A stretch of DNA of 64,000 nucleotides from an uncultured Altererythrobacter sp. GTDB lineage: Bacteria; Pseudomonadota; Alphaproteobacteria; Sphingomonadales; Sphingomonadaceae. Made by a program: the position numbers and the translations under genes. The notes under the pieces are model-generated. The model worked only from the letters and a program-made list of their open reading frames with translations. It was not told where the DNA came from and did no database searches. Of the stretch, positions 42,833 to 51,495 are shown one piece after another (positions within the stretch are counted from its first letter, which is position 1; each line of letters begins with the position of its first letter). The stretch spans positions 120,959 to 184,958 of the forward strand of contig CAJXJY010000007.1 of the NCBI GenBank assembly GCA_913055875.1, written 5' to 3'.

Positions 42833-43279
42833 TCAGAATTCCGCTACGGCATCGAGCGCGATCAGATAGCTCTTCGCGCCGTGCCCCTCGACCGTCTTCA
42901 CCGCGGCGAGGCCGACATAGGAGTGGTGACGAAATTCCTCGCGCTGCCTGGGATCGGACAGGTGCACCTCGATCACCGGCGTGCGGATCGACAGAATCGC
43001 ATCGTGCAGCGCGACCGAGGTATGCGTGTAGCCGCCCGCATTGAGCAGCACCGCGCGCGCACCCTCCGCCTGCGCCTCGTGCAGCCAGTCGATCAGGTGT
43101 CCCTCGTGGTTCGACTGGCGCATGTCGACTTCCAACCCGAGCTCGCGCGCGCGATCCTCGAGCATGCCGGCGATATCGTCGAGCGTGTCGGAGCCGTAGA
43201 TTTCCGGCTCGCGCAGCCCGAGCAGGTTGAGATTGGGCCCGTTGAGGACGTAGACGGTGTCGGTGATCGGTACGGACAT
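42833..43279 (-). CDS. aroQ: Type II 3-dehydroquinate dehydratase
   Basis: [19 protein letters not shown]...QSNHEG signature. Confidence 0.93.
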
Positions 43280-43330
43280 GCGAACTATCTAGCGGAGGGC
43301 GCGGTCATCTGAAAACCCGTTCATCGGCAG

Positions 43331-43399
43331 CCCGTTCGTGTCGAGCGCAGTCGAGGCACCTTGCCGATAGGCCTCTCGACTTCGCTCGAGGCGAACGGG
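43331..43399. repeat. Palindromic REP-like element (variant of the 32660 family)
   Basis: CCCGTTCGTGTCGAGCGCAGTCGAGGC at 43331-43357 and GCCTCTCGACTTCGCTCGAGGCGAACGGG at 43371-43399, imperfect arms. Confidence 0.7.
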
Positions 43400-43405
43400 A
43401 AAGCA

Positions 43406-43819
43406 TTATTTGTCCACCCCCTTGACCTTCCCCCATTGCCGCGCGGCGGTGTAGCCAAGATAGCCGGTCCCGAACAGCGCGTAGAGCGGTTCGGGCAGGC
43501 CGTTGAGATAGGCGTTCATGCCCGCGGCGATGTCCTTCGCGACCGGCGGGTTGAAGGCTGCGAGCACGCCCATCGGCAGCGCGAACAGTAGCAGCGTGTA
43601 CATCACATAGAGGAAGCTCGGCCGTGCGCGGCTGGTCCAGGGGTCGTTGCTGTTGGCCTCGGCCACGATCGCCGACAGCCGCGCTTCGATCTGCGCGAGG
43701 TCCTGCGACCCTTCGAGCCGGAGCAGTTCGAGCTTGGCCTTGGCGCGCGCTTCCTTGTCGGGGATGATCTTGTCGATAATCGAGGAAATCGGGCCGATAA
43801 GCGATTCGAGTAGGGGCAT
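43406..43819 (-). CDS. 3TM holin of the gene-transfer-release type (GTA/phage holin)
   Basis: MPLLESLIGPISSIIDKIIPDKEARAKAKLELLRLE..., then hydrophobic segments and a basic tail. Matches my recollection of that Pfam family. Confidence 0.7.
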   Translation of the reverse strand: MPLLESLIGPISSIIDKIIPDKEARAKAKLELLRLEGSQDLAQIEARLSAIVAEANSNDPWTSRARPSFLYVMYTLLLFALPMGVLAAFNPPVAKDIAAGMNAYLNGLPEPLYALFGTGYLGYTAARQWGKVKGVDK

Positions 43820-43862
43820 GATGCGCGCTCCGATTGCGAGTCGCGAGATATATAACCAAAAT

Positions 43863-43890
43863 GGTTATTGTAGGAAAATGAAAAATCCTA
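43863..43890. promoter_or_regulatory. 26-nt AT-rich promoter/operator box upstream of the holin
   Basis: The reverse complement of 43863-43888 (GGATTTTTCATTTTCCTACAATAACC) matches 49836-49861 at 24/26 positions. Contains TACAAT. TAGGA 43871-43875 and TCCTA 43886-43890 form an inverted pair. Confidence 0.65.
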
Positions 43891-44778
43891 TTCGGAAAGT
43901 CCGGCGTCGGCCAGCAGCGCCTGCGCCAGCTTCAGATGCGGCAAGTCTACCATCGCCCCGTCGAGCCCGACCGTGCCCGCGCCCGGATTGTCCGCGAAGG
44001 CGGCGATCACGCGGCGGGCATGGGCGATCTCCTCCTCGCCAGGGGTGAAGGCTTCGTTGATCACCGGCACCTGCGCGGGGTGGATCGCGAGCATGCCGCG
44101 ATAGCCCTGGCCGCGCACCATCGCCGCGCGTTCGCGCAGACCATCGAGGTCGCGGAAATCGGGCATCACCGTCTCGACCGGCATCACGCCCGCCGCGACC
44201 GCGCCGAGCAGGCACAGGCTGCGCGCGAGCTCGTAGGTCGGCATGTAGCCGCCGTCGGCCCGGTGCTGGACGCGCGCGCCGAGCGCCGAGGACAGGTCCT
44301 CCGCACCCCAGCTCATCGCCACCAGCCGCGGTGCGCCCTCGTAATCGCCGGTACGGAACATGGCCTTGGGGGTTTCCGTCACCAGCGCAGCGACCCTGGT
44401 CGCGCCCGGCCCGATGCCGTTGACCGCTTCGAGATCGATCAGCATTTCGTCGAGCGCCGCGACATCCTCGCGCCCTTCGGCCTTGGGCAGGAACAGCCCG
44501 CCGGGCGCAGACGGCATGACCGCATCGAGATCGGCGCGCGTTTCGCCGCTCGACAGCGGGTTGACCCGCACCCACAGCCGCGCCCGGTCTTCGCGCGTGG
44601 CGAGGAATTGCGCCACCATTTCGCGCGCCGCGGGCTTGTTCTCGGGCATGACCGAATCTTCGAGGTCGAGCAGCACGATGTCCGCCTCGCCATCGGCGGC
44701 CTTGGCCATCTTGCGCTCGCTGTCGCCGGGGGCGAACAGCCAGCTGCGCATCTTGGTCGGTGTCTCGCGGGCGCTCAT
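43888..44778 (-). CDS. HpcH/HpaI aldolase / citrate lyase beta (CitE-like) family protein
   Basis: RSWLFAPGDSERKM.KA...ADIVLLDLEDSV signature. ATG at 44778, because the longer ORF runs through the tRNA. Confidence 0.85.
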   Translation of the reverse strand: MSARETPTKMRSWLFAPGDSERKMAKAADGEADIVLLDLEDSVMPENKPAAREMVAQFLATREDRARLWVRVNPLSSGETRADLDAVMPSAPGGLFLPKAEGREDVAALDEMLIDLEAVNGIGPGATRVAALVTETPKAMFRTGDYEGAPRLVAMSWGAEDLSSALGARVQHRADGGYMPTYELARSLCLLGAVAAGVMPVETVMPDFRDLDGLRERAAMVRGQGYRGMLAIHPAQVPVINEAFTPGEEEIAHARRVIAAFADNPGAGTVGLDGAMVDLPHLKLAQALLADAGLSE

Positions 44779-44849
44779 GAAAATTCTCCTCGCCGACCGG
44801 TTAGGGAGGCCGCGAGCAAGGCGCAATATCGCGAGGGAAACGAAGCCAC

Positions 44850-44926
44850 TGGTCGGGAAGACAGGATTCGAACCTGCGACCCCCACACCCCCAGTGTGAT
44901 GCGCTACCAGGCTGCGCTACTTCCCG
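44850..44926 (-). tRNA. tRNA-Pro (anticodon GGG)
   Basis: CGGGAAG acceptor, anticodon loop CTGGGGG, TTCGAAT T-loop, encoded CCA. 77 nt. Confidence 0.9.
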
Positions 44927-45132
44927 AGACCAGTGGAGGGCGGCGCTATAGGGCGGGGCGGTGTGGCTGGCAAGCATCGAAAACGGTGCATCGCCGTGCC
45001 GTTAGATTGCAGGGGCCTTGCATTGCTGCTAGGCGCGCCCACCTACTGCGAGGGGAGGCGAGCGGCGCGCGAAATCGCACTGCGACCGGCCCCGGCAGAT
45101 GCAACCCTCCAAGTCGAACAGGCTTTTGAAAC

Positions 45133-45453
45133 ATGCTCGAATTCCTCGCCGCCGCGGCCAATGCCGAAGCGCCGCCCGCATGGATGGGATGGCTGCCGAT
45201 CGTCGGCATGATCGCCATCTTCTGGTTCCTCATCATCCGCCCGCAGATGAAGCAGGCCAAGCAGCATCGCGAGAAGGTCGCCGGGCTCAAGAAGGGCGAC
45301 CAGGTCGTCACCCAGGGCGGCATCATGGGCAAGGTGACCAAGGTCGACGACAACTACGCCGACGTCGAGATCGCGCAGGGCGTGAAGGTCAAGGTGGTCA
45401 AGTCGACCATCGGCGACATCGTGCCCCCGGGCGGCACCGCGGCCAACGACTGA
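45133..45453 (+). CDS. yajC: Preprotein translocase subunit YajC
   Basis: IRPQMKQAKQHREKVAGLKKGDQVVTQGGIMGKV signature. Confidence 0.93.
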   Translation: MLEFLAAAANAEAPPAWMGWLPIVGMIAIFWFLIIRPQMKQAKQHREKVAGLKKGDQVVTQGGIMGKVTKVDDNYADVEIAQGVKVKVVKSTIGDIVPPGGTAAND

Positions 45454-45472
45454 CGCGAAGGGCGCACCGGCA

Positions 45473-47071
45473 ATGCTCGAATTTCCGACCTGGAAGAAGG
45501 TGTGGCTGTGGGGGCTGACGCTGGCCTTCGCCGCCGCCGCGCTCCCCTCGCTGGTATCGCTGTCGGGCTATGACTGGCCCAAACAGCTGCCCGATCCCGA
45601 AGTCAATCTCGGCCTCGACCTCGCCGGCGGGAGCCATATCCTGCTCGAGGCCGATCCCGCCGAAGTCACCGCGCAGCGGATCGAGAACATGGAAGAGGGC
45701 GTGCGCACAGCTTTGCGCAACGCCGAGCCGCGTATCCAGCATGGCGACGTTTCGACGCAGGGCGGGCAGCTCAGTTTCATGGTCGATAGCACTGCCGAGG
45801 TGGATCGCGCTCGCTCGCTGATCGAGCCGCTCGTCAACGGGCAGGGGCTGGTGCGTGAATGGGACCTGCAGGTGGTCGACGAGACGCGTTTCGTCCTGAC
45901 CCCGACCGCGCAGGGCCTCGAGGAAGCGCTCAACCAGGCGATGGACAGCGCCAAGGAAGTGATCGACCGCCGCATCAACGCGCTCGGCACGCGCGAGCCG
46001 ACCATTATCCGCCAGGGCGAGGACCGGATCGTGGTGCAGGTCCCCGGCCTGCAGGATCCCGACCAGGTCAAGGAACTGGTCGGCAAGACCGCCAAGCTCG
46101 AATTCAAGCTGGTCGACCAGAACGCGCTGCCCGCCGACGTGCAGCAGGGCATCGTCCCGCCCGGCAGCCAGATATTCCCTTATGCCGCGGGGAGCGATTT
46201 CGAAGGCACTTCGATCGCGGTCAAGCGGCTCGGCGGGATCCAGGGCGACAACCTGATCGGCGCGCAGCAGGGCTTCGACCAGGAGACAAACGCGCCGGTG
46301 GTCAATATCCAGTTCGACCAGCAGGGTGCGGCGCGCTTCGGTACGCTCACGCAGCAGAACGTCAACAAGCCGTTCGCGATCATTCTCGACGGCGAAGTGC
46401 TGTCGGCGCCGAACATCAACGAACCGATCCTGGGTGGCAACGCGCAGATTTCGGGTGGCTTCTCCGTCGAGACCGCCAACAATCTCGCCATCGCATTGCG
46501 CTCGGGCGCCTTGCCGGTCGAGCTTGCCGTGGTCGAGGAACGCACCGTCGGTCCCGATCTCGGCGCCGATTCGATCAAGCGCGGCATGATCGCGATGCTG
46601 ATCGGCAGCATCGCGGTGATTGCGCTGATGATCGCGACATACGGCCGTTTCGGCGTCTATTCGACCGCCGCTCTGGTGTTCAACGTGGCGATGCTCCTCG
46701 GCGTGATGGCGCTGCTCAACACCACGTTGACACTGCCCGGCATAGCCGGCTTCGTACTCACCATCGGCGCGGCGGTCGATGCCAATGTGCTTATCAACGA
46801 GCGTATTCGCGAAGAGCGAAAACGCGGGCGGCGGGTGATCGCCGCGGTCGAGACCGGCTACAAGGAAGCCAGCCGCGCGATCTACGACGCCAACATCACC
46901 AATTTCATCGCCGGCGTGCTGCTGTTCCTGTTCGGCTCGGGCCCGGTGCGCGGCTTCGCGGTGGTGCTGGTGATCGGCCTCTTCACCAGCGTCTTCACCG
47001 CGCTCATGCTGACCCGGATGTGGGTCGCGGGCTGGCTGCGCAAGGCGCGGCCGACGGACCTGCATCTGTAA
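45473..47071 (+). CDS. secD: Protein translocase subunit SecD
   Basis: LGLDLAGGSHILLE..., C-terminal 6 TM helices. Follows yajC. Confidence 0.95.
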   Translation: MLEFPTWKKVWLWGLTLAFAAAALPSLVSLSGYDWPKQLPDPEVNLGLDLAGGSHILLEADPAEVTAQRIENMEEGVRTALRNAEPRIQHGDVSTQGGQLSFMVDSTAEVDRARSLIEPLVNGQGLVREWDLQVVDETRFVLTPTAQGLEEALNQAMDSAKEVIDRRINALGTREPTIIRQGEDRIVVQVPGLQDPDQVKELVGKTAKLEFKLVDQNALPADVQQGIVPPGSQIFPYAAGSDFEGTSIAVKRLGGIQGDNLIGAQQGFDQETNAPVVNIQFDQQGAARFGTLTQQNVNKPFAIILDGEVLSAPNINEPILGGNAQISGGFSVETANNLAIALRSGALPVELAVVEERTVGPDLGADSIKRGMIAMLIGSIAVIALMIATYGRFGVYSTAALVFNVAMLLGVMALLNTTLTLPGIAGFVLTIGAAVDANVLINERIREERKRGRRVIAAVETGYKEASRAIYDANITNFIAGVLLFLFGSGPVRGFAVVLVIGLFTSVFTALMLTRMWVAGWLRKARPTDLHL

Positions 47072-47083
47072 GGGGAAAGATCG

Positions 47084-48067
47084 ATGCGACTGCTCAAACT
47101 CGTCCCCGACGATACCAATATCAAGTTCCTCAAATGGCGCCTGCCGTTCTACGTCGTCAGCTGCCTGCTGATCGCTGCGAGCTGGGGCCTGGTGCTGACC
47201 AAGGGGCTCAATTACGGCGTCGATTTCGCCGGCGGCCAGGAAGTGCGGCTGACCTTCGAGCAGCGCAAGGAAGCGCCCATTCCGGCGCTGCGCGAGCTGG
47301 TCGGCGGGCTCGGCTACGGCACGCCGGTGGTGCAGGAATTCGGCGAGGCCAACCAGGTCTCGATCCGCGTGCGCCTGCCCGAGGAGGCCGAGGGCGTGCC
47401 GGGGGCGGCAACCGAGATCGGCAATCAGGTCATCCGGACCATCGAGGGCGAATATCCCGCCGTCCGCCGCGACGGCAACGACACCGTCTCGGGCAAGGTC
47501 GCGAGCGAGTTCCGCAGCGATGCGGTGCTGGCGCTGGTGCTCGCGATGCTCGGCGTGGCGCTGTATATCTGGATCCGGTTCGAATGGCAGTTCGGGGTCG
47601 GCGCGCTGTTTGCGCTGTTCCACGACGTTTCGCTCACGCTCGGCATGTTCGCGCTGTTCCAGATGGAATTCAGCCTCCAGATCATCGCCGCGATCCTCGC
47701 CATCATCGGCTATTCGCTCAACGATACGATCGTCGTCTACGACCGCATACGCGAGAATTTGAAGAAATACCGCAAGATGCACCTGCCCGAACTGCTCGAC
47801 CTGTCGGTCAACGAGACGCTCGCGCGCACGGTGATGACCTCGCTGACGCTCGCCGTCGCGCTGATCCCGCTGCTGTTCTTCGGCCCGGCGAGCCTGTTCG
47901 GGCTGACCGCGGCGATCTTCCTCGGGCTGGTGGTCGGCACCTACAGCTCGGTCTACATGGCCGCGCCGATGCTGATCTGGCTCGGCGTCAATTCGGACAG
48001 CTTCGTTCCGGAAGAGACGATCGCCGACAAGCAGGAAGCGGCCGCCCGGCGAATGAGCGAGGGCTAG
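47084..48067 (+). CDS. secF: Protein translocase subunit SecF
   Basis: NYGVDFAGGQ..., SLNDTIVVYDRIRE motif. Confidence 0.95.
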   Translation: MRLLKLVPDDTNIKFLKWRLPFYVVSCLLIAASWGLVLTKGLNYGVDFAGGQEVRLTFEQRKEAPIPALRELVGGLGYGTPVVQEFGEANQVSIRVRLPEEAEGVPGAATEIGNQVIRTIEGEYPAVRRDGNDTVSGKVASEFRSDAVLALVLAMLGVALYIWIRFEWQFGVGALFALFHDVSLTLGMFALFQMEFSLQIIAAILAIIGYSLNDTIVVYDRIRENLKKYRKMHLPELLDLSVNETLARTVMTSLTLAVALIPLLFFGPASLFGLTAAIFLGLVVGTYSSVYMAAPMLIWLGVNSDSFVPEETIADKQEAAARRMSEG

Positions 48068-49242
48068 GCAATCAGCCGGTCATAGTAGTCGGCGAGCCTC
48101 TCGCCGTTCGCCTTCCAGTCGAATTGAGCCACGGTGGCTGCGACACGCTCCTGCGGGATCGGGTTGTCGAGCACGCGCCGGATGCCCGCAGCGATGGCGT
48201 CGGTCGTGCGCTCGACCAGCACCCCTGCATCGGGCGAGGTGACGAGTTCGCGCACTCCGCCGACATCGGTGGTGACCAGCGGCGTCCCGCAGGCGAGCGC
48301 CTCTACCCAGGCATTGGCCAGCCCCTCGCTGCGCGTGGGCAACACCATTGCGTTGGAGGCCGACAGCACCACCGGCAGCATGTCGTGGTCGAGCAGGCCG
48401 ACGAAATGCACCCGGTCGGCGACGCGCAGGTCCTCCGCCAGCCGGCGCAGATGCGCCTCGTCCTCGCCCTTGCCGACCAGCATCAGGTGGGCGTCGGGAA
48501 TCGAGGCGAGCGCGCCGATGGCGAAATCCTGCCCCTTGCGCTCGATCAGCGCGCCGACGCAGCACAGCAGCGGCTTGTGCTCGGGCAATGAAATGCCGAG
48601 CGCGTCGCCGAGCGTTCGGCGCATGCCTTCGTAGGCCATCGGCCGGAACAGGTCGCGGTCGAGCCCGGTATAGTGGATGGTGATCTTGCGCCGATCCATG
48701 CCCAGATCGGCCATGTCGCTCGCGATCTGCCTGGACACTGCGAGCAGGCCTGCGGCGCGGTCGGCCGCGTCGAGCATCTGGTCCTCGGCGAAGTCCTTGC
48801 CTCCCCAATAGGAGATGTCCGCCCCGCGCGCCTTGATCGAGAAGGGCAGGCCGAGCCTGTCGGCGATCCACGCCGCCGCCGGGCCGTCGGGATAGAAGAA
48901 CTGCGCATCGACGAGGTCGAACGGGGTCTCGGCGTGGAGCCGCTCGGCGAGCGGCAGCACCTTGCGCGCGATGGCGCCGGGATTGATCCGCGCACCGAGG
49001 CGCGGGATCAGCGTGAATTTGGGCCGATGGACCTCGACCCCGTTCTCCACCCCGTCGACCGCGGCCTCGGCCAGGGCGCGATAGCGGCCGAACAGGATCG
49101 GCGGGACGCCGATCGGATTGACCAGCGTGACGTGCCAGTCGCCGCGCGCCGCCAGCGCCTCGAGCGAGCGCGCGACGAAGATGCCGAAACGCGGCGTCGA
49201 GGCGTTGGGATACAGCGTCGAGAGCGACAGGACGCGCTTCAC
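48064..49242 (-). CDS. Glycosyltransferase family 4
   Basis: GTG at 49242 (VKRVLSLSTLYPN...). C-terminal E..G....EA.ACG.P GT-B motif. Start overlaps the stop of the XRE gene. Confidence 0.8.
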   Translation of the reverse strand: MKRVLSLSTLYPNASTPRFGIFVARSLEALAARGDWHVTLVNPIGVPPILFGRYRALAEAAVDGVENGVEVHRPKFTLIPRLGARINPGAIARKVLPLAERLHAETPFDLVDAQFFYPDGPAAAWIADRLGLPFSIKARGADISYWGGKDFAEDQMLDAADRAAGLLAVSRQIASDMADLGMDRRKITIHYTGLDRDLFRPMAYEGMRRTLGDALGISLPEHKPLLCCVGALIERKGQDFAIGALASIPDAHLMLVGKGEDEAHLRRLAEDLRVADRVHFVGLLDHDMLPVVLSASNAMVLPTRSEGLANAWVEALACGTPLVTTDVGGVRELVTSPDAGVLVERTTDAIAAGIRRVLDNPIPQERVAATVAQFDWKANGERLADYYDRLIA

Positions 49243-49811
49243 AATTTGCGCACCAGCATTTCCGCGACCGCGATCCATGCCGGGTCGTCGACCACCTGCT
49301 GTTTCTCTCCGCTGCCAGGTGGCAGAATGCCGACCAGTTTGCCCTGCCGGTCGATCAGCCGCCCGAAGGCGAAACGACCGCCCTTTCTGGGCACGAGCAC
49401 GTCGCGGTTGATCGCGCGTTGTGCGTCGCCGGGATCGAGCTGGCGCAGCCACAGCTGGTCGCCGGCGCAATAGGGGCCTGCGGCGGCCTCGATCGCCAGC
49501 ACCATCAGCGGCCCGTCGCCGCCGAGATCGGTCGGCAGGATCGCATCGCGCGTTTTTGCGAGCGCCTCGGGCCCCGACGCCTCGAGCGTGGCGACGATTT
49601 GCGGATGCCCGGCCTTTTCGGAGCGCACCAGCGTTTCGGGATCGACCCCGAGCGCCGCGCCGATGCGGTCCATCCACTTGATCGACAGATTGCGCATGCC
49701 CGTTTCGAGCCGGCCGATCGTCTGCGCGGTGGTCGGCGGATCGCATGCCTCGGCGAGGTCGGCCAGCGTCCAGCCCTTCTCCTTGCGAATGTCGCGAATG
49801 CGATTGATCAC
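49239..49811 (-). CDS. XRE-family HTH regulator with degenerate (non-catalytic) S24/LexA-like C-terminal domain
   Basis: INRIRDIRKEKGWTLADLAE HTH. The C-terminal beta-rich domain aligns by eye to S24, but AAAGPY replaces GDSMEP. GTG start. Confidence 0.7.
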   Translation of the reverse strand: MINRIRDIRKEKGWTLADLAEACDPPTTAQTIGRLETGMRNLSIKWMDRIGAALGVDPETLVRSEKAGHPQIVATLEASGPEALAKTRDAILPTDLGGDGPLMVLAIEAAAGPYCAGDQLWLRQLDPGDAQRAINRDVLVPRKGGRFAFGRLIDRQGKLVGILPPGSGEKQQVVDDPAWIAVAEMLVRKL

Positions 49812-49835
49812 GCGCTCTCTCTCGGTAACCTTTTT

Positions 49836-49861
49836 GGTTTTTTCACTTTCCTACAATAACC
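49836..49861 (+). promoter_or_regulatory. 26-nt AT-rich promoter/operator box in the divergent region
   Basis: GGTTTTTTCACTTTCCTACAATAACC, 24/26 identical to the holin box. TACAAT at 49852-49857. AACC-n5-GGTT inverted repeat at 49827-49839. Confidence 0.65.
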
Positions 49862-49909
49862 GCATGAATGCAAGACCATCGATACGTCGAATCGACCGAT
49901 GGAGGCACG

Positions 49910-50383
49910 ATGCAACGCAAACTGGCCGAACGCGAGCTGACCGAGGAGGGGCCGCGCAGGAGCAACGGAGCACGGAAAAGGCGCCGCAGCGTTACCGTGA
50001 ACCTCGCCGAATCGCCGCTCGCCTGGCTCCATGCGCGCGGGCATCTCGACGATCGGCTGTTCGATGCGGGCGAGCGGCTGCGCGCCGATTACGAACGCGC
50101 GCAGCTCGGCCCCAACGTGACCATGCGGTGGGACCCGGTGCGGGTGAAGACGACCGGCGATACCGGCCTGTCGCCGACCGAGCGGCAGATCGCCGCCAAG
50201 GATCGCTTCGACGGCGCGCTCCGCGAGGCGGGCAAGGGGCTGCAGGATATTCTCTGGCGCGTGGTGTGCGGCTGCGAGAGCCTGCCCGCGGCGGAGAAGG
50301 CGCTCGACTGGCCGGCACGCAGCGGCAAGCTGGTGCTCAGGCTGGCGCTCGACCGGGTGGCGGATTTCTACCGGATCGGGTGA
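49910..50383 (+). CDS. DUF6456-like protein (possible DNA-binding regulator)
   Basis: ATG at 49910 preceded by GGAGG (49901-49905). LAESPLAWLHARG...AGERLRADYE pattern as recalled for DUF6456. The listed ORF starts at 49868, only 6 nt after the box. Confidence 0.55.
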   Translation: MQRKLAERELTEEGPRRSNGARKRRRSVTVNLAESPLAWLHARGHLDDRLFDAGERLRADYERAQLGPNVTMRWDPVRVKTTGDTGLSPTERQIAAKDRFDGALREAGKGLQDILWRVVCGCESLPAAEKALDWPARSGKLVLRLALDRVADFYRIG

Positions 50384-50430
50384 CGGCGACCGCTCTGGCA
50401 ACGTGGCGCGCTTTGTGGCAGCCATGCCGC

Positions 50431-50844
50431 ATGTGGCGCGTGGTGGTGGCATATGGAGCGGGACTGGCGGCCGTGGCGATGCTGCTCGAATACATGCAGT
50501 ATCGCCACCTGATCCGGTCGCTGCAGACAGAGACCTATATCGTCGTGCTGGCCGTGGTGTTCGTCGGCATCGGGCTGTGGGTGGGGATGCGGATCAACCC
50601 GTCGCCGGCCGGCGAGCCGTTCGAACGCAATGTTCGCGCGGTGGCTTCGCTCGGCCTGACGGCGCGCGAATGCGAAGTGCTCGAATGCCTGGCGCGCGGC
50701 GAATCGAACAAGGAGATCGCGCGCGCGATGGAAGTTTCGCCCAATACGGTGAAGACGCACGTCGCCAATCTCTACGCCAAGCTCGGCGTATCGGGCCGGG
50801 GCAAGGCGGTGGAGGCGGCGCGCGCGCTGGCGCTGATCCCTTGA
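50431..50844 (+). CDS. Membrane-anchored LuxR/GerE-family transcriptional regulator
   Basis: Two N-terminal TM helices, then LTARECEVLECLARGESNKEIARAMEVSPNTVKTHVANLYAKLGV. Confidence 0.7.
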   Translation: MWRVVVAYGAGLAAVAMLLEYMQYRHLIRSLQTETYIVVLAVVFVGIGLWVGMRINPSPAGEPFERNVRAVASLGLTARECEVLECLARGESNKEIARAMEVSPNTVKTHVANLYAKLGVSGRGKAVEAARALALIP

Positions 50845-50958
50845 TTCGGGGGGCGATCGCCCGTGAAAACGGACTATTCGACCCAATTCACCCACATGGG
50901 TGATAGCATTTCGCGCAATTCTCCGGCCTGTCCGGCTTCCTTGGAAAGGAGAACGGCC

Positions 50959-51495
50959 ATGTTTCGATACGCAGCAATTTACGGCGCGATCGCCGGCACG
51001 GTGATCATCGCCACGATGACCCTCGTGCTGACGCTGGGGGGCGACGAGGATTACGGTTTCAGCGAGGTGATGGGCTACCTCGTCATGCTCGCCGTGCTGT
51101 CGCTGATCTTCATCGGCATCAAGCGCTACCGCGACATCGAGAAGGGCGGGGTGATCAAGTTCGCCCCCGCTTTCGGACTCGGCCTCGCCATCACCGCGGT
51201 CGCGGGCGTGTTCTATGTCATCAGCTGGGAAATCTACCTCGCCTCGACCGACTACGCCTTCATCGACAGCTACAGCGAGAGCATGATCGCGAGCATCGAG
51301 GCGAAGGACCTGCCGCCCGACGAACGCGCAGCGGAGATCGCCGAGGTCGAGTCCTCGCGCACGCTCTACGGCAATCTGCCGTTCCGGCTGATGATCACCT
51401 TCATCGAGATCTTCCCGGTCGGGCTGCTGGTGGCGCTGGTATCCGCCGCGCTGCTGCGCAACCCGCGGCTGCTGCCGGCGCGCAAAGCGGCCTAG
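50959..51495 (+). CDS. DUF4199-like multi-pass membrane protein
   Basis: ATG at 50959 behind AAAGGAGAA. MFRYAAIYGAIAGTVIIA..., four hydrophobic segments. Confidence 0.55.
   Translation: MFRYAAIYGAIAGTVIIATMTLVLTLGGDEDYGFSEVMGYLVMLAVLSLIFIGIKRYRDIEKGGVIKFAPAFGLGLAITAVAGVFYVISWEIYLASTDYAFIDSYSESMIASIEAKDLPPDERAAEIAEVESSRTLYGNLPFRLMITFIEIFPVGLLVALVSAALLRNPRLLPARKAA

What the first reader, a model, noticed from the sequence alone, without database searches (positions are those of the whole stretch)
43406..43890. Orphan GTA-type 3TM holin wedged between aroQ and a citE-like gene, carrying the shared 26-nt box
The 137-aa product (MPLLESLIGPISSIIDKIIPDKEARAKAKLELLRLE..., followed by hydrophobic segments) fits the Pfam family described as holin of 3TMs for gene-transfer release.

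No endolysin, spanin, capsid, tail or integrase gene is nearby. The neighbours are accBC-aroQ, a REP element, a citE-like lyase and tRNA-Pro.

Its upstream region holds the 26-nt box shared with 49836-49861. It also holds a TAGGA (43871-43875) / TCCTA (43886-43890) inverted pair, the latter overlapping the stop codon of the upstream gene.

A solitary, specifically regulated holin in a housekeeping neighbourhood suggests either a lysis gene of a multi-locus GTA or a co-opted membrane-permeabilising effector.
Basis: partly seen in the sequence, partly recalled or inferred. Interest (0 to 1): 0.6.

Follow-up and report, generated by a model that had tools for sequence, protein, structure and literature searches.

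The report
Endolysin-less gene-transfer-agent holin, wired to GTA switch
This is a real, strongly conserved membrane-hole-forming (holin) gene of a domesticated-phage "gene transfer agent" in an Erythrobacteraceae bacterium; it is tied by a shared promoter element to the agent's master switch and particle genes, yet it has no cell-wall-cutting partner enzyme and survives in relatives that have lost the particle genes.

Summary
ORF 43406-43819(-) encodes a 137-aa PF11351 GTA_holin_3TM protein (E 2.7e-30), single-copy in a 3.3-Mb Erythrobacteraceae genome. Its 26-nt upstream box recurs 24/26 before the DUF6456 (GafZ-like) gene.

- **Not orphan:** the citE-holin-REP-aroQ-accB arrangement is conserved across genera. 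The holin sits 6-12 kb from the XRE/gafZ switch in most of the family. Its dN (0.13) is lower than that of aroQ, accB or citE.
- **GTA present:** the genome has one complete RcGTA-like head-tail cluster on another contig.
- **The box:** nine of the 26 nt (T[TG]TCCTACA) are a generic promoter element with 66 genomic copies. The specific part is a TAACC-N5-GGTTA palindrome in the spacer/-10. Only six such sites exist genome-wide; three are the holin, gafZ/XRE and GTA-cluster promoters. All are conserved in relatives.
- **No endolysin:** relatives carry a GH108 endolysin before the holin, but this genome and 16 other holin-alone genomes have none.
- **Coupling:** across 61 genera the holin always co-occurs with gafZ (39/39) but not with GTA tail genes. 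Five complete genomes without capsid, portal or tail genes keep an intact holin.

Best reading: GTA-regulon lysis gene, a new variant of a known kind. Expression could not be tested.

The parts
43406..43819 (-). Holin CDS, 137 aa, PF11351 GTA_holin_3TM / PHROG 3427
   Evidence: The AF2 model is all-helical. Only residues 68-90 are strongly hydrophobic.
43828..43831 (-). Shine-Dalgarno GGAG, 8 nt before the ATG
   Evidence: GGAG(C) is conserved at this position in nearly all of 80 relatives.
43838..43842 (-). GACTC (GANTC, the CcrM-type methylation motif) in the leader, within conserved GCGA(C/A)TC(G)
   Evidence: CGANTC lies 20-29 nt before the ATG in 60-61 of 80 relatives, against 12.3 expected from shuffles. 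Its function is inferred only.
43853..43867 (-). Perfect palindrome TAACCATTTTGGTTA in the promoter spacer. Its right half GGTTA(TATAT) provides the -10 (TATATA at 43849-43854). This is the specific cis element of the GTA regulon.
   Evidence: The loose form occurs in 57/80 and strict AACC-N5-GGTT in 37/80 named relatives. The pattern occurs in 38/61 genera, with about 70 forward hits against 10 control hits.
43869..43877 (-). -35-like element TTTCCTACA, generic for this lineage and not GTA-specific
   Evidence: There are 66 genomic copies, upstream of ruvA, rplK, ispG, argB, purA, lon, prfA, lepB and others, with GCTA about 12 nt downstream. It is present in 78/80 holin loci, 56-66 nt before the ATG.
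43863..43888 (-). It comprises GGAT plus a T-tract, the generic -35-like element, and the left half-site ATAACC.
43331..43399 (-). REP-family hairpin, beginning 7 nt past the TAA stop codon of the holin gene. It probably insulates or terminates the holin transcript before aroQ.
   Evidence: about 20 copies; -53.1 kcal/mol, z -3.5. It has no U-tract.
49826..49839 (+). Palindrome TAACCTTTTTGGTT between the XRE start (49811) and the gafZ -35-like element. This is the same cis element as in the holin promoter.
   Evidence: It is conserved in most of 30 relatives, in the order XRE start, about 20 nt, AACC-N5-GGTT, 8-10 nt, T[TG]TCCTACA.
49836..49861 (+). Second copy of the 26-nt box (24/26), the promoter of the DUF6456 gene. 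It is followed by ATGCAAG (49868-49874), the local form of the family-conserved (A)ACC-N5-GGCAAG.
49910..50383 (+). DUF6456 (GafZ / GafA C-terminal-like) gene. The likely true start is 49910, preceded by GGAGG, not 49868.
   Evidence: PF20057, E 2e-41. Single copy. Start inspected.
49239..49811 (-). XRE-family HTH protein (RogA-like candidate repressor), divergent from gafZ
   Evidence: PF01381, E 1.1e-9. It is adjacent to gafZ in all 30 relatives examined.

Best explanation
The gene encodes a bona fide member of the GTA-release holin family. It is the membrane-lesion component of an RcGTA-like, multi-locus gene transfer agent of an Erythrobacteraceae bacterium.

**Transcription.** The gene has its own promoter, made of three parts:
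- the lineage's generic -35-like TTTCCTACA;
- a 17-nt spacer carrying the palindrome TAACC-N5-GGTTA, whose right half is the -10;
- a GANTC-containing leader.

**Wiring.** The palindrome-type element is shared with the promoter of the XRE/gafZ master switch 6 kb away, and with the promoter of the head-tail cluster on another contig. Holin synthesis is therefore tied to the GTA on/off decision. The factor reading the element is inferred, not shown. It is either the sigma-like GafZ protein or the XRE repressor. In Caulobacter the GafZ-binding element is likewise a palindrome between -35 and -10.

**Action (inferred).** The protein has a roughly 60-residue cytoplasmic helical N-terminus, a conserved DPWTSRARP juxtamembrane motif, one strong and one weak membrane helix, and a basic C-terminal tail. 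It would accumulate in the inner membrane and permeabilise it late in GTA production.

**Open step.** The usual GH108 endolysin partner is absent here. The step that breaches the murein is unknown.
For: **Shown**
- Family membership.
- Phage members of the same family.
- Single copy in the genome.
- A complete head-tail cluster at C5:96.7-111.3 kb, with TerL, portal, HK97 capsid, tube, NCTSP+DUF2460, hub, NlpC/P60, Rcc01698-like and DUF2793 genes.
- DUF6456 plus XRE switch.
- Box identity 24/26, unique in the genome.
- The cis element [TGA]AACC-(AT-rich N5)-GG(TT|CA) has six sites genome-wide. Three are the holin, gafZ/XRE and GTA-cluster promoters. The GTA-cluster site is an independent hit, because the pattern was derived from the other two (chance about 3e-4).
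- The element is conserved at the cluster promoter in 14 relatives, at gafZ in most of 30 relatives and at the holin in 57/80 relatives.
- In relatives the same promoter drives endolysin-holin operons and other accessory genes.
- Holin and gafZ are linked at 6-12 kb in most genera and co-occur 39/39 (Fisher p 4e-4).
- Purifying selection: dN 0.128, dN/dS about 0.16, with dN lower than aroQ, accB or citE.

**From the literature**
- rcc00555/rcc00556 are the unlinked RcGTA lysis locus, with conserved local synteny (PMC5026251). They are switched on by GafA plus CtrA~P (PMC9638019).
- The GafZ-binding element in Caulobacter is a palindrome between -35 and -10 (PMC11150451).
Against: - No expression or lysis data exist.
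- No GH108 endolysin is in this genome or in 16 other holin-alone genomes. No alternative muralytic gene lies behind the element or between holin and aroQ in relatives. A holin alone does not release 30-40-nm particles in the classical model.
- Holin presence is not associated with the GTA tail gene: 28/39 against 14/22, p 0.57.
- Fourteen genomes with the GTA tail gene lack the holin.
- Five complete genomes lacking capsid, portal and DUF2460 keep an intact holin.
- The position of the element differs between promoters. It is in the spacer/-10 at the holin and upstream of -35 at the cluster and gafZ, so a single simple mode of action is unlikely.
- Hydropathy supports one clear TM segment, not three.
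- Nine of the 26 shared bases are generic.
Confidence: 0.6

Rival explanations
1. The holin is mainly a GTA-independent effector of the XRE/GafZ switch. It would be a regulated membrane-permeabilising or export device. Possible modes are non-lytic release, altruistic death, or activation of host autolysins by membrane depolarisation. On this reading it merely shares its regulator with the GTA and is kept by selection whether or not particles are made.
For: - Holin co-occurs with gafZ in 39/39 genera but is independent of the GTA tail gene, p 0.57.
- G201, G211, G214, G216 and G250, all at least 98% complete, have no HK97 capsid, no PF04860 portal and no DUF2460. They still carry holin and gafZ, and G201, G211, G214 and G216 also carry the promoter motif.
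- G195, G023 and G232 show a decaying cluster (a portal without capsid or tail gene, a portal fragment, an in-frame stop) with an intact holin.
- Holins of four of these genomes (cluster-less G216 and G201; cluster-remnant G023 and G195) are full-length and ungapped. Pairwise dN/dS is 0.16-0.19 among G216, G201 and G023, within the range seen among GTA-bearing genomes.
- No GH108 endolysin is present.
- The holin evolves more slowly than flanking housekeeping genes. In Rhodobacterales, by contrast, rcc00556 is among the fastest-evolving GTA genes (PMC5026251).
Against: - In this genome a complete GTA cluster carries the same cis element.
- In many relatives the holin is still paired with a GH108 endolysin in a classical lysis cassette behind the same promoter.
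- The phyletic test is not corrected for phylogeny.
- Pairwise dN/dS includes time before cluster loss.
- Other capsid or portal families were not searched.
- No positive evidence exists for any alternative cargo or phenotype.
Confidence: 0.25
2. The shared box reflects only the lineage's ordinary promoter architecture. On this reading the holin is not specifically co-regulated with gafZ or the GTA cluster. It would be constitutive or otherwise controlled, for example through the GANTC site and the cell cycle.
For: - T[TG]TCCTACA occurs 66 times before housekeeping genes.
- The total genomic count of the degenerate palindrome pattern (8 hits) is close to the chance expectation of about 6.
- Thirteen of 80 relatives have a holin promoter without the palindrome but with the generic element and CGANTC.
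Against: - Identity of 24/26 extends beyond the generic 9-mer and is unique in the genome.
- Three of six palindrome sites fall in the three GTA-related promoters, and the other three are not promoters.
- The element is conserved at all three promoter types across genera.
- The full motif is strongly enriched over its reversed control in 61 genera.
- All six gafZ-less genomes lack the specific motif.
Confidence: 0.1
3. The gene is a decaying remnant of a prophage lysis cassette with no current function.
For: It lacks an endolysin and spanin. Family members occur in phages.
Against: - dN/dS is about 0.16, and the protein is 80-94% identical across many genera.
- All examined orthologues are 137 aa.
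- Synteny is conserved (aroQ downstream in 75/80), as are the promoter, Shine-Dalgarno and leader.
- No prophage genes are nearby.
Confidence: 0.03

Closest known systems
Rhodobacter capsulatus RcGTA lysis locus rcc00555 (endolysin) / rcc00556 (holin)
   Same: - It belongs to the GTA-release holin family. The Pfam PF11351 description reads 'for gene-transfer release'. That rcc00556 itself is a member rests on my knowledge of Pfam and TCDB 1.E.54; it was not tested here.
- It is unlinked from the head-tail cluster.
- Its local synteny among cellular genes is conserved.
- It is expressed under the GTA regulators GafA plus CtrA~P (PMC5026251, PMC9638019).
   Different: - There is no adjacent or distant GH108 endolysin here.
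- The holin is among the slowest-evolving local genes here, whereas rcc00556 is among the fastest-evolving RcGTA genes (PMC5026251).
- The regulator is a short DUF6456 protein with a divergent XRE gene, rather than full-length GafA.
- The holin lies only 6 kb from the regulator.
Caulobacter crescentus CcGTA control (RogA repressor, GafY/GafZ, IHF) and LypABC lysis
   Same: - An XRE-type repressor candidate sits next to a DUF6456 gene.
- Dispersed accessory loci share the activator.
- The GafZ-binding element is a palindrome between -35 and -10 (PMC11150451), which is the position of TAACC-N5-GGTTA in the holin promoter.
- No holin-endolysin pair is used; release leaves non-explosive ghost cells (PMC13236601).
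   Different: - Caulobacter has no holin or endolysin homologue at all and lyses through the CARD-NLR-like LypABC (PMC9632790, PMC13236601).
- Its RogA operator is GGAA-N4-TTCC.
- GafZ binds only the cluster promoter there.
- Here the palindrome is found at three promoter classes and in two different positions.
Phage holins of PF11351 / PHROG 3427 (for example Pseudoalteromonas phages HP1 and RIO-1, Salinibacter phages M8CRM-1 and M31CC-1)
   Same: They share residues about 38-135: the DPWTSRARP motif, the TM core and the GYLGY C-terminal helix. Identity is 37-51%.
   Different: - The gene is chromosomal and single-copy, lies in a conserved housekeeping neighbourhood, and has a conserved extra N-terminal helix (IIDKIIPD).
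- The phage contexts examined did not show an annotated adjacent endolysin either, so they do not add functional proof.
Endolysin-holin cassettes of other Erythrobacteraceae/Sphingomonadales genomes (GH108 + PG_binding_3-like protein of about 180 aa, then the holin)
   Same: The holin is orthologous, and the same promoter motif TCCTACA-N4-5-AACC-N5-GGTTA is present, placed upstream of the endolysin.
   Different: In this genome and its clade the cassette has lost (or never had) the endolysin. It sits between citE and aroQ instead of next to hslVU.

Membership tests
PF11351 GTA_holin_3TM (GTA-release holin family) | Significant full-length match to the family profile | tested here: met
   E 2.7e-30, 105.8 bits against a cut-off of 24.8, profile positions 2-123 of 123. 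PHROG 3427 holin, E 2.7e-27. The family motifs AExxSxDPWTSRARPSFLY and LFGxGYLGY are conserved.
PF11351 GTA_holin_3TM (GTA-release holin family) | Three transmembrane segments | tested here: inconclusive
   By Kyte-Doolittle hydropathy only residues 68-90 are clearly hydrophobic. Residues 2-19 and 108-126 are marginal. AF2 (pLDDT 79) gives helices 2-18, 22-37, 40-56, 68-89, 91-107 and 110-133. Charge distribution fits an N-in/C-in topology with two membrane helices plus an amphipathic N-terminal helix; this is inference.
PF11351 GTA_holin_3TM (GTA-release holin family) | Small size and a basic cytoplasmic C-terminal tail, typical of holins | tested here: met
   The protein is 137 aa and ends in RQWGKVKGVDK.
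PF11351 GTA_holin_3TM (GTA-release holin family) | Causes membrane permeabilisation or lysis when expressed | not testable with these tools
   This requires inducible expression and viability or dye-uptake assays.
Classical holin-endolysin lysis cassette (as rcc00555/rcc00556) | A cognate endolysin gene adjacent to, or co-regulated with, the holin | tested here: not met
   tblastn with three orthologous GH108 endolysins against the whole genome found nothing at E 1e-3 or better. PF05838 is absent from this genome and from 16 other holin-alone genomes, and present only where it is adjacent to the holin. No other gene lies behind the cis element.
RcGTA-like multi-locus gene transfer agent | A head-tail structural cluster of RcGTA type in the same genome | tested here: met
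   The cluster is at C5:96.7-111.3 kb. It has Terminase_6N/6C, Phage_portal, Phage_capsid (the only one in the genome), Phage_tail_2, NCTSP+DUF2460, hub (PF09931+PF09356), NlpC/P60, Phage-tail_3+Rcc01698_C and DUF2793. GTA_TIM (PF13547) is not detected.
RcGTA-like multi-locus gene transfer agent | A GafA/GafYZ-type regulator | tested here: met
   A DUF6456 gene, E 2e-41, single copy, with a divergent XRE HTH gene. No GafY-type partner was identified.
RcGTA-like multi-locus gene transfer agent | Lysis locus co-regulated with the structural cluster | tested here: inconclusive
   A shared, conserved cis element is present at the holin, gafZ/XRE and cluster promoters. The phyletic profile couples the holin to gafZ but not to the cluster.
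Prophage lysis module | Embedded in, or adjacent to, prophage genes and variable between strains | tested here: not met
   There are no phage genes in 40-52 kb. The synteny citE-holin-aroQ-accB is conserved across genera.

The most novel reading that the evidence does not exclude
The holin together with the XRE/GafZ switch forms a self-standing, selectable 'programmed permeabilisation' module that outlives the GTA particle genes.

In at least five complete Erythrobacteraceae genomes with no capsid, portal or tail genes, the module is intact, carries its promoter in most of them, and (in the two compared) is under purifying selection. In most of the family it works without any dedicated endolysin.

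Its real role would then be a regulator-gated, endolysin-independent membrane lesion. That could mean non-explosive release, export, or altruistic death, possibly with a cell-cycle or methylation input through the conserved CGANTC leader. GTA release would be only one of its uses.
Probability: 0.25. Interest if true: 0.7.

Novelty: new variant of a known kind. Interest (0 to 1): 0.5.

Why it matters
GTA release is understood in only two systems. Rhodobacter uses a classical holin-endolysin pair. Caulobacter uses the immune-like LypABC with no holin at all. In the papers searched, Sphingomonadales RcGTA-like clusters appear only in comparative-genomic surveys (PMC5721377).

This locus shows a third configuration. 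A highly conserved GTA-family holin has lost its endolysin in a large clade. It remains hard-wired, through a recognisable cis element, to the GafZ/XRE switch and to the structural cluster.

That gives three directly testable handles:
- a 15-bp palindrome that can be mutated;
- a one-gene lysis candidate that can be deleted;
- natural 'experiments', namely genomes that kept the switch and holin but lost the particle genes.

These bear on an open question: why are GTAs and their costly lysis functions maintained by selection?

Tried and rejected
- **GTA_TIM (PF13547):** searched as a cluster marker and absent. The cluster was then found through the capsid.
- **A third box copy at C1:447790-447815 (6 mismatches):** it lies just past the 3' end of an ftsK-like gene and points antisense into it. 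I judged it chance.
- **Site C4:104878-104900 matching the full motif:** it is the ordinary lepB-rnc-era promoter. This led to recognising the generic T[TG]TCCTACA element.
- **Alternative endolysin:** none between holin and aroQ in relatives with insertions there. No GH108 anywhere in the genome.
- **Accessory genes seen behind the motif in relatives** (spike-like 104-142 aa proteins, an SGNH-like 538 aa protein): no homologues in this genome.
- **CtrA box (TTAA-N7-TTAA):** considered for the palindrome. AACC-N5-GGTT does not fit it, so it was rejected on sequence grounds.
- **TAGGA/TCCTA inverted pair:** too short to be meaningful; it is explained by the generic element plus the stop-codon context.
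- **Foldseek of the AF2 model against BFVD:** no hit at E 0.001 or better. The best hit was another PF11351 phage holin at E 0.63, which is uninformative. A PDB fold search was not run.
- **Consensus sigma-70 and terminator scan of 43100-44100:** found nothing, because the promoter type is non-consensus.
- **NCBIfam:** no model for the holin or for DUF6456.
- **The look-up of sequencing runs:** Westbye 2013 (PMC3811591) is not held.
- **Phage genomic contexts of homologues:** no annotated adjacent endolysin.
Full report
**1. What is there**

The minus-strand ORF 43406-43819 encodes 137 aa. It has a GGAG Shine-Dalgarno 8 nt upstream.
- It matches Pfam PF11351 GTA_holin_3TM over the whole profile, E 2.7e-30 and 105.8 bits against a cut-off of 24.8.
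- It matches PHROG 3427 'holin', E 2.7e-27.
- It is the only PF11351 gene in the 3.31-Mb, 99.99%-complete genome.

- aroQ-accB-accC lie downstream on the same strand.
- A REP-family hairpin at 43331-43399 begins 7 nt past the TAA stop codon of the holin gene. It has about 20 genomic copies, -53 kcal/mol and z -3.5.
- A citE/HpcH-type lyase ends at 43888.
- tRNA-Pro is at 44850-44926.

The closest proteins are 83-94% identical. They come from Altererythrobacter, Erythrobacter, Aurantiacibacter, Pontixanthobacter, Qipengyuania and related genera, where NCBI calls them 'holin family protein'. The organism is therefore a member of the Erythrobacteraceae (Sphingomonadales).

**2. The protein**

Hydropathy shows one strongly hydrophobic segment at residues 68-90. 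Two marginal segments lie at 2-19 and 108-126.

An AlphaFold2 model built on 51 diverse homologues has mean pLDDT 79, and above 90 for residues 80-110. It is all-helical: H2-18, H22-37, H40-56, a loop carrying the near-invariant DPWTSRARP motif, H68-89, H91-107 and H110-133.
- With Arg residues before the central helix and a basic C-terminus (RQWGKVKGVDK), I infer an N-in/C-in topology.
- The '3TM' of the family name is not clearly borne out here.

A fold search against viral models was uninformative. Phage homologues cover residues about 38-135, in Pseudoalteromonas phages HP1 and RIO-1 and in Salinibacter phages.

**3. Not an orphan and not a recent insertion**

PF11351 is present in 157 of 201 genomes sampled across the order, mostly as a single copy.

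In 80 named Erythrobacteraceae loci:
- aroQ-accB lies downstream in 75.
- The citE-like gene lies upstream in 45.
- None has an endolysin upstream.

Against the same genomes, holin dN (0.128; dN/dS about 0.16) is lower than that of aroQ (0.165), accB (0.219) and citE (0.272). One caveat applies: the loci were chosen by holin similarity. This contrasts with Rhodobacterales, where rcc00556 is among the fastest-evolving RcGTA genes (PMC5026251).

The holin and the DUF6456 gene are also linked at 6-12 kb in most genera of the family, and at 6 kb here (coordinates).

**4. The genome does contain a GTA**

The only HK97 capsid gene lies at C5:106133-106993. It sits within a complete RcGTA-like head-tail cluster at C5:96.7-111.3 kb. 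The cluster contains:
- a TerS-like HTH g1, TerL, portal, protease, capsid, adaptor and tail tube;
- a tape-measure-like protein;
- a 797-aa fusion of the non-contractile tail sheath domains with DUF2460;
- a hub, NlpC/P60, an Rcc01698-like megaprotein and DUF2793.

At 49.2-50.4 kb of the window, an XRE HTH gene is divergent from a DUF6456 gene (GafZ / GafA C-terminal-like). The multi-locus GTA frame is therefore real.

**5. What the '26-nt box' is**

The match is 43863-43888 against the reverse complement of 49836-49861, at 24/26. Both copies have the same orientation towards the downstream gene, and the match is unique in the genome.

The 9-mer T[TG]TCCTACA inside the box is generic.
- It has 66 copies, against about 17 expected from base composition (my own estimate).
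- It has an upstream A-tract and a GCTA -10 about 12 nt downstream.
- It stands in front of ruvA, rplK, ispG, argB, purA, lon, prfA, lepB and others.

The specific part is what follows it. In the holin promoter this is TTTCCTACA-A-TAACCATTTTGGTTA-TATAT. That is a perfect palindrome (43853-43867) in the spacer, and its right half supplies the -10.

The architecture TCCTACA-N4-5-(A)ACC-N5-GGTTA is widely conserved:
- It is present in 25 of 30 holin loci of the family.
- It is present in 57 of 80 named relatives.
- It occurs in 38 of 61 genera, with about 70 hits against about 10 for the reversed control.

In relatives the motif marks 2-3 loci per genome:
- the holin or an endolysin-holin operon;
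- HTH proteins of 291-423 aa with a DGWTPERQ motif;
- small spike-like proteins, some followed by an SGNH-like protein.

At gafZ, the family-conserved layout is as follows:
- the XRE start;
- about 20 nt;
- (T)AACC-N5-GGTT;
- 8-10 nt;
- T[TG]TCCTACA;
- N4-5, then (A)ACC-N5-GGCAAG.

It holds the right half of an upstream palindrome, a T-tract, the generic -35-like element, and the left half of a spacer element.

**6. Link to the structural cluster**

I scanned the whole genome for [TGA]AACC-(AT-rich N5)-GG(TT|CA). This gave 8 hits at 6 sites, about the number expected by chance.
- Three sites are the holin promoter, the XRE/gafZ region and the promoter of the head-tail cluster (C5:111470).
- The other three lie in coding sequence or in an uninformative spacer.
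- The pattern was derived from the first two sites, so the cluster promoter is an independent hit, with a chance of roughly 3e-4.

In 14 relatives and in this genome the cluster promoter reads (T)AACC-N5-GG(T/C)N, then 8-9 nt, then TTGACATCGTSACGCT-N5-GGTTAGAG. The same element therefore marks all three GTA loci.

**7. Who reads the element (inference)**

In Caulobacter:
- GafY occupies the promoters of gafYZ, the cluster and the accessory loci.
- RogA binds only gafYZ, at GGAA-N4-TTCC (PMC9632790).
- The GafZ-binding element is a near-perfect palindrome between -35 and -10 (PMC11150451).

The holin-promoter palindrome has exactly that position, and holin presence is perfectly nested within gafZ presence. 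This favours the sigma-like GafZ protein. The XRE protein remains a good candidate because the palindrome abuts its own start codon. The different positions of the element (spacer/-10 against upstream of -35) argue against a single simple mode of action.

A conserved CGA(N)TC lies 20-29 nt before the ATG in 60-61 of 80 loci, against 12 expected. This suggests an additional methylation or cell-cycle input. That is speculative.

**8. The missing endolysin**

In about 12 of 30 family loci the holin is preceded by a protein of about 180 aa with a GH108 domain (PF05838) and, by eye, a PG_binding_3-like C-terminus. The promoter sits upstream of that gene.
- tblastn with three such proteins finds nothing in this genome.
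- PF05838 is absent from this genome and from 16 other holin-alone genomes. It is present only where it is adjacent to the holin.
- No substitute was found next to the holin or behind the cis element.

How the murein is breached is therefore open. Candidates are the cluster's NlpC/P60 or TIM-barrel tail proteins, host autolysins, or a non-explosive release like the one in Caulobacter (PMC13236601).

**9. Phyletic pattern**

In one genome per genus (61 genera):
- Full-length holin is present in 39, gafZ in 54 and DUF2460 in 42.
- Holin and gafZ co-occur in 39/39 (Fisher p 4e-4).
- Holin against DUF2460 is 28/39 versus 14/22 (p 0.57).

Of the 11 genomes with holin and gafZ but no DUF2460:
- seven lack any PF05065 capsid;
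- five (G201, G211, G214, G216, G250; at least 98% complete) also lack a PF04860 portal;
- G195, G023 and G232 show remnants.

The holins of four of these genomes were compared: cluster-less G216 and G201, and cluster-remnant G023 and G195. All are 137 aa and ungapped. Pairwise dN/dS is 0.16-0.19 among G216, G201 and G023, similar to GTA-bearing pairs.

These counts are not phylogenetically corrected, and only one capsid family and one portal family were searched. Even so, they keep the 'co-opted effector' reading alive.

**10. Verdict**

- The gene is a genuine GTA-family holin belonging to the GafZ/XRE-controlled regulon of an RcGTA-like agent (confidence about 0.6 that GTA release is its job here).
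- It is a new variant of a known kind. It is endolysin-less, unusually conserved, linked to the switch, and evolutionarily decoupled from the particle genes.

Noticed in passing
Whole genome; in the window e.g. 19349 (C7:140307), 43869-43877, 49847-49855: T[TG]TCCTACA is a lineage-typical -35-like promoter element. It has 66 copies, an A-tract upstream and a GCTA -10 about 12 nt downstream. It stands before many housekeeping genes (ruvA, rplK, ispG, argB, purA, lon, prfA, lepB). It does not resemble the TTGACA consensus, and what recognises it is unclear.
   Followed up: partly
Own genome, outside the window: C12:22049, C9:15571(-), C9:81852, C6:117601, C7:99153, C5:62923(-), C1:322779(-), C1:372633(-), C4:83955: A paralogous HTH family with the motif DGWTPERQRxF...GSV..AA...GMS...AY.LR.R..F..AWD has at least 9 copies. 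Most sit right behind a TCCTACA-type promoter box, and four have an ATG 36 nt after the box start, suggesting near-leaderless mRNAs. There is no significant Pfam hit. The N-terminus resembles GTA g1 (TerS-like). In relatives, some members sit behind the GTA-specific promoter. This family could be the missing GafY-type partner.
   Followed up: partly
43838-43842 and C5 about 111380 (leader of the GTA cluster): A GANTC (CcrM-type) site within conserved GCGA(C/A)TCG lies 20-29 nt before the holin ATG in 60-61 of 80 relatives, against 12 expected by chance. GATTC or GAGTC also follows the conserved GGAACATCGCGAT leader of the GTA cluster. This may be a methylation or cell-cycle (GcrA-like) input.
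   Followed up: partly
43406-50383 (holin to gafZ), and the same interval in relatives: The holin and the XRE/gafZ switch are kept 6-12 kb apart in most genera of the family. Here tRNA-Pro, yajC-secDF and a glycosyltransferase lie between them. This is loose but conserved linkage of GTA accessory loci.
   Followed up: partly
C5:100580-102973(-), outside the window: The GTA cluster encodes a 797-aa fusion of the non-contractile tail sheath protein domains (PF23844 and PF23845) with DUF2460 (the g12 distal tail protein). Open frames of 765-950 aa at the DUF2460 hit in most family genomes suggest the fusion is conserved. GTA_TIM (PF13547) is absent from the genome.
   Followed up: no
49868-49910: The longest DUF6456 ORF starts at 49868, inside the promoter's conserved -10-like ATGCAAG. 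The likely true start is the ATG at 49910, preceded by GGAGG. In several relatives the gene is about 100 aa longer at the N-terminus, and the XRE gene lies about 300 nt further away. These may be GafA-like fused forms.
   Followed up: partly
44780-44926: The GTG-started citE-like ORF (to 44886) overlaps tRNA-Pro (44850-44926, same strand). The real start is probably a downstream ATG (MSARETPTKMRSW...).
   Followed up: no
Relatives G244, G232, G195, G023: There are signs of piecemeal GTA decay. G244 has a holin with an in-frame TAG. G232 has a portal with an in-frame TGA and no capsid. G195 has an intact portal next to gafZ but no capsid or tail gene. G023 has a 130-residue portal fragment.
   Followed up: partly
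50371-51495: Directly downstream of gafZ lie a membrane-anchored LuxR/GerE-type regulator (50371-50844, overlapping the gafZ 3' end) and a DUF4199 membrane protein. Their relation to the switch was not examined.
   Followed up: no
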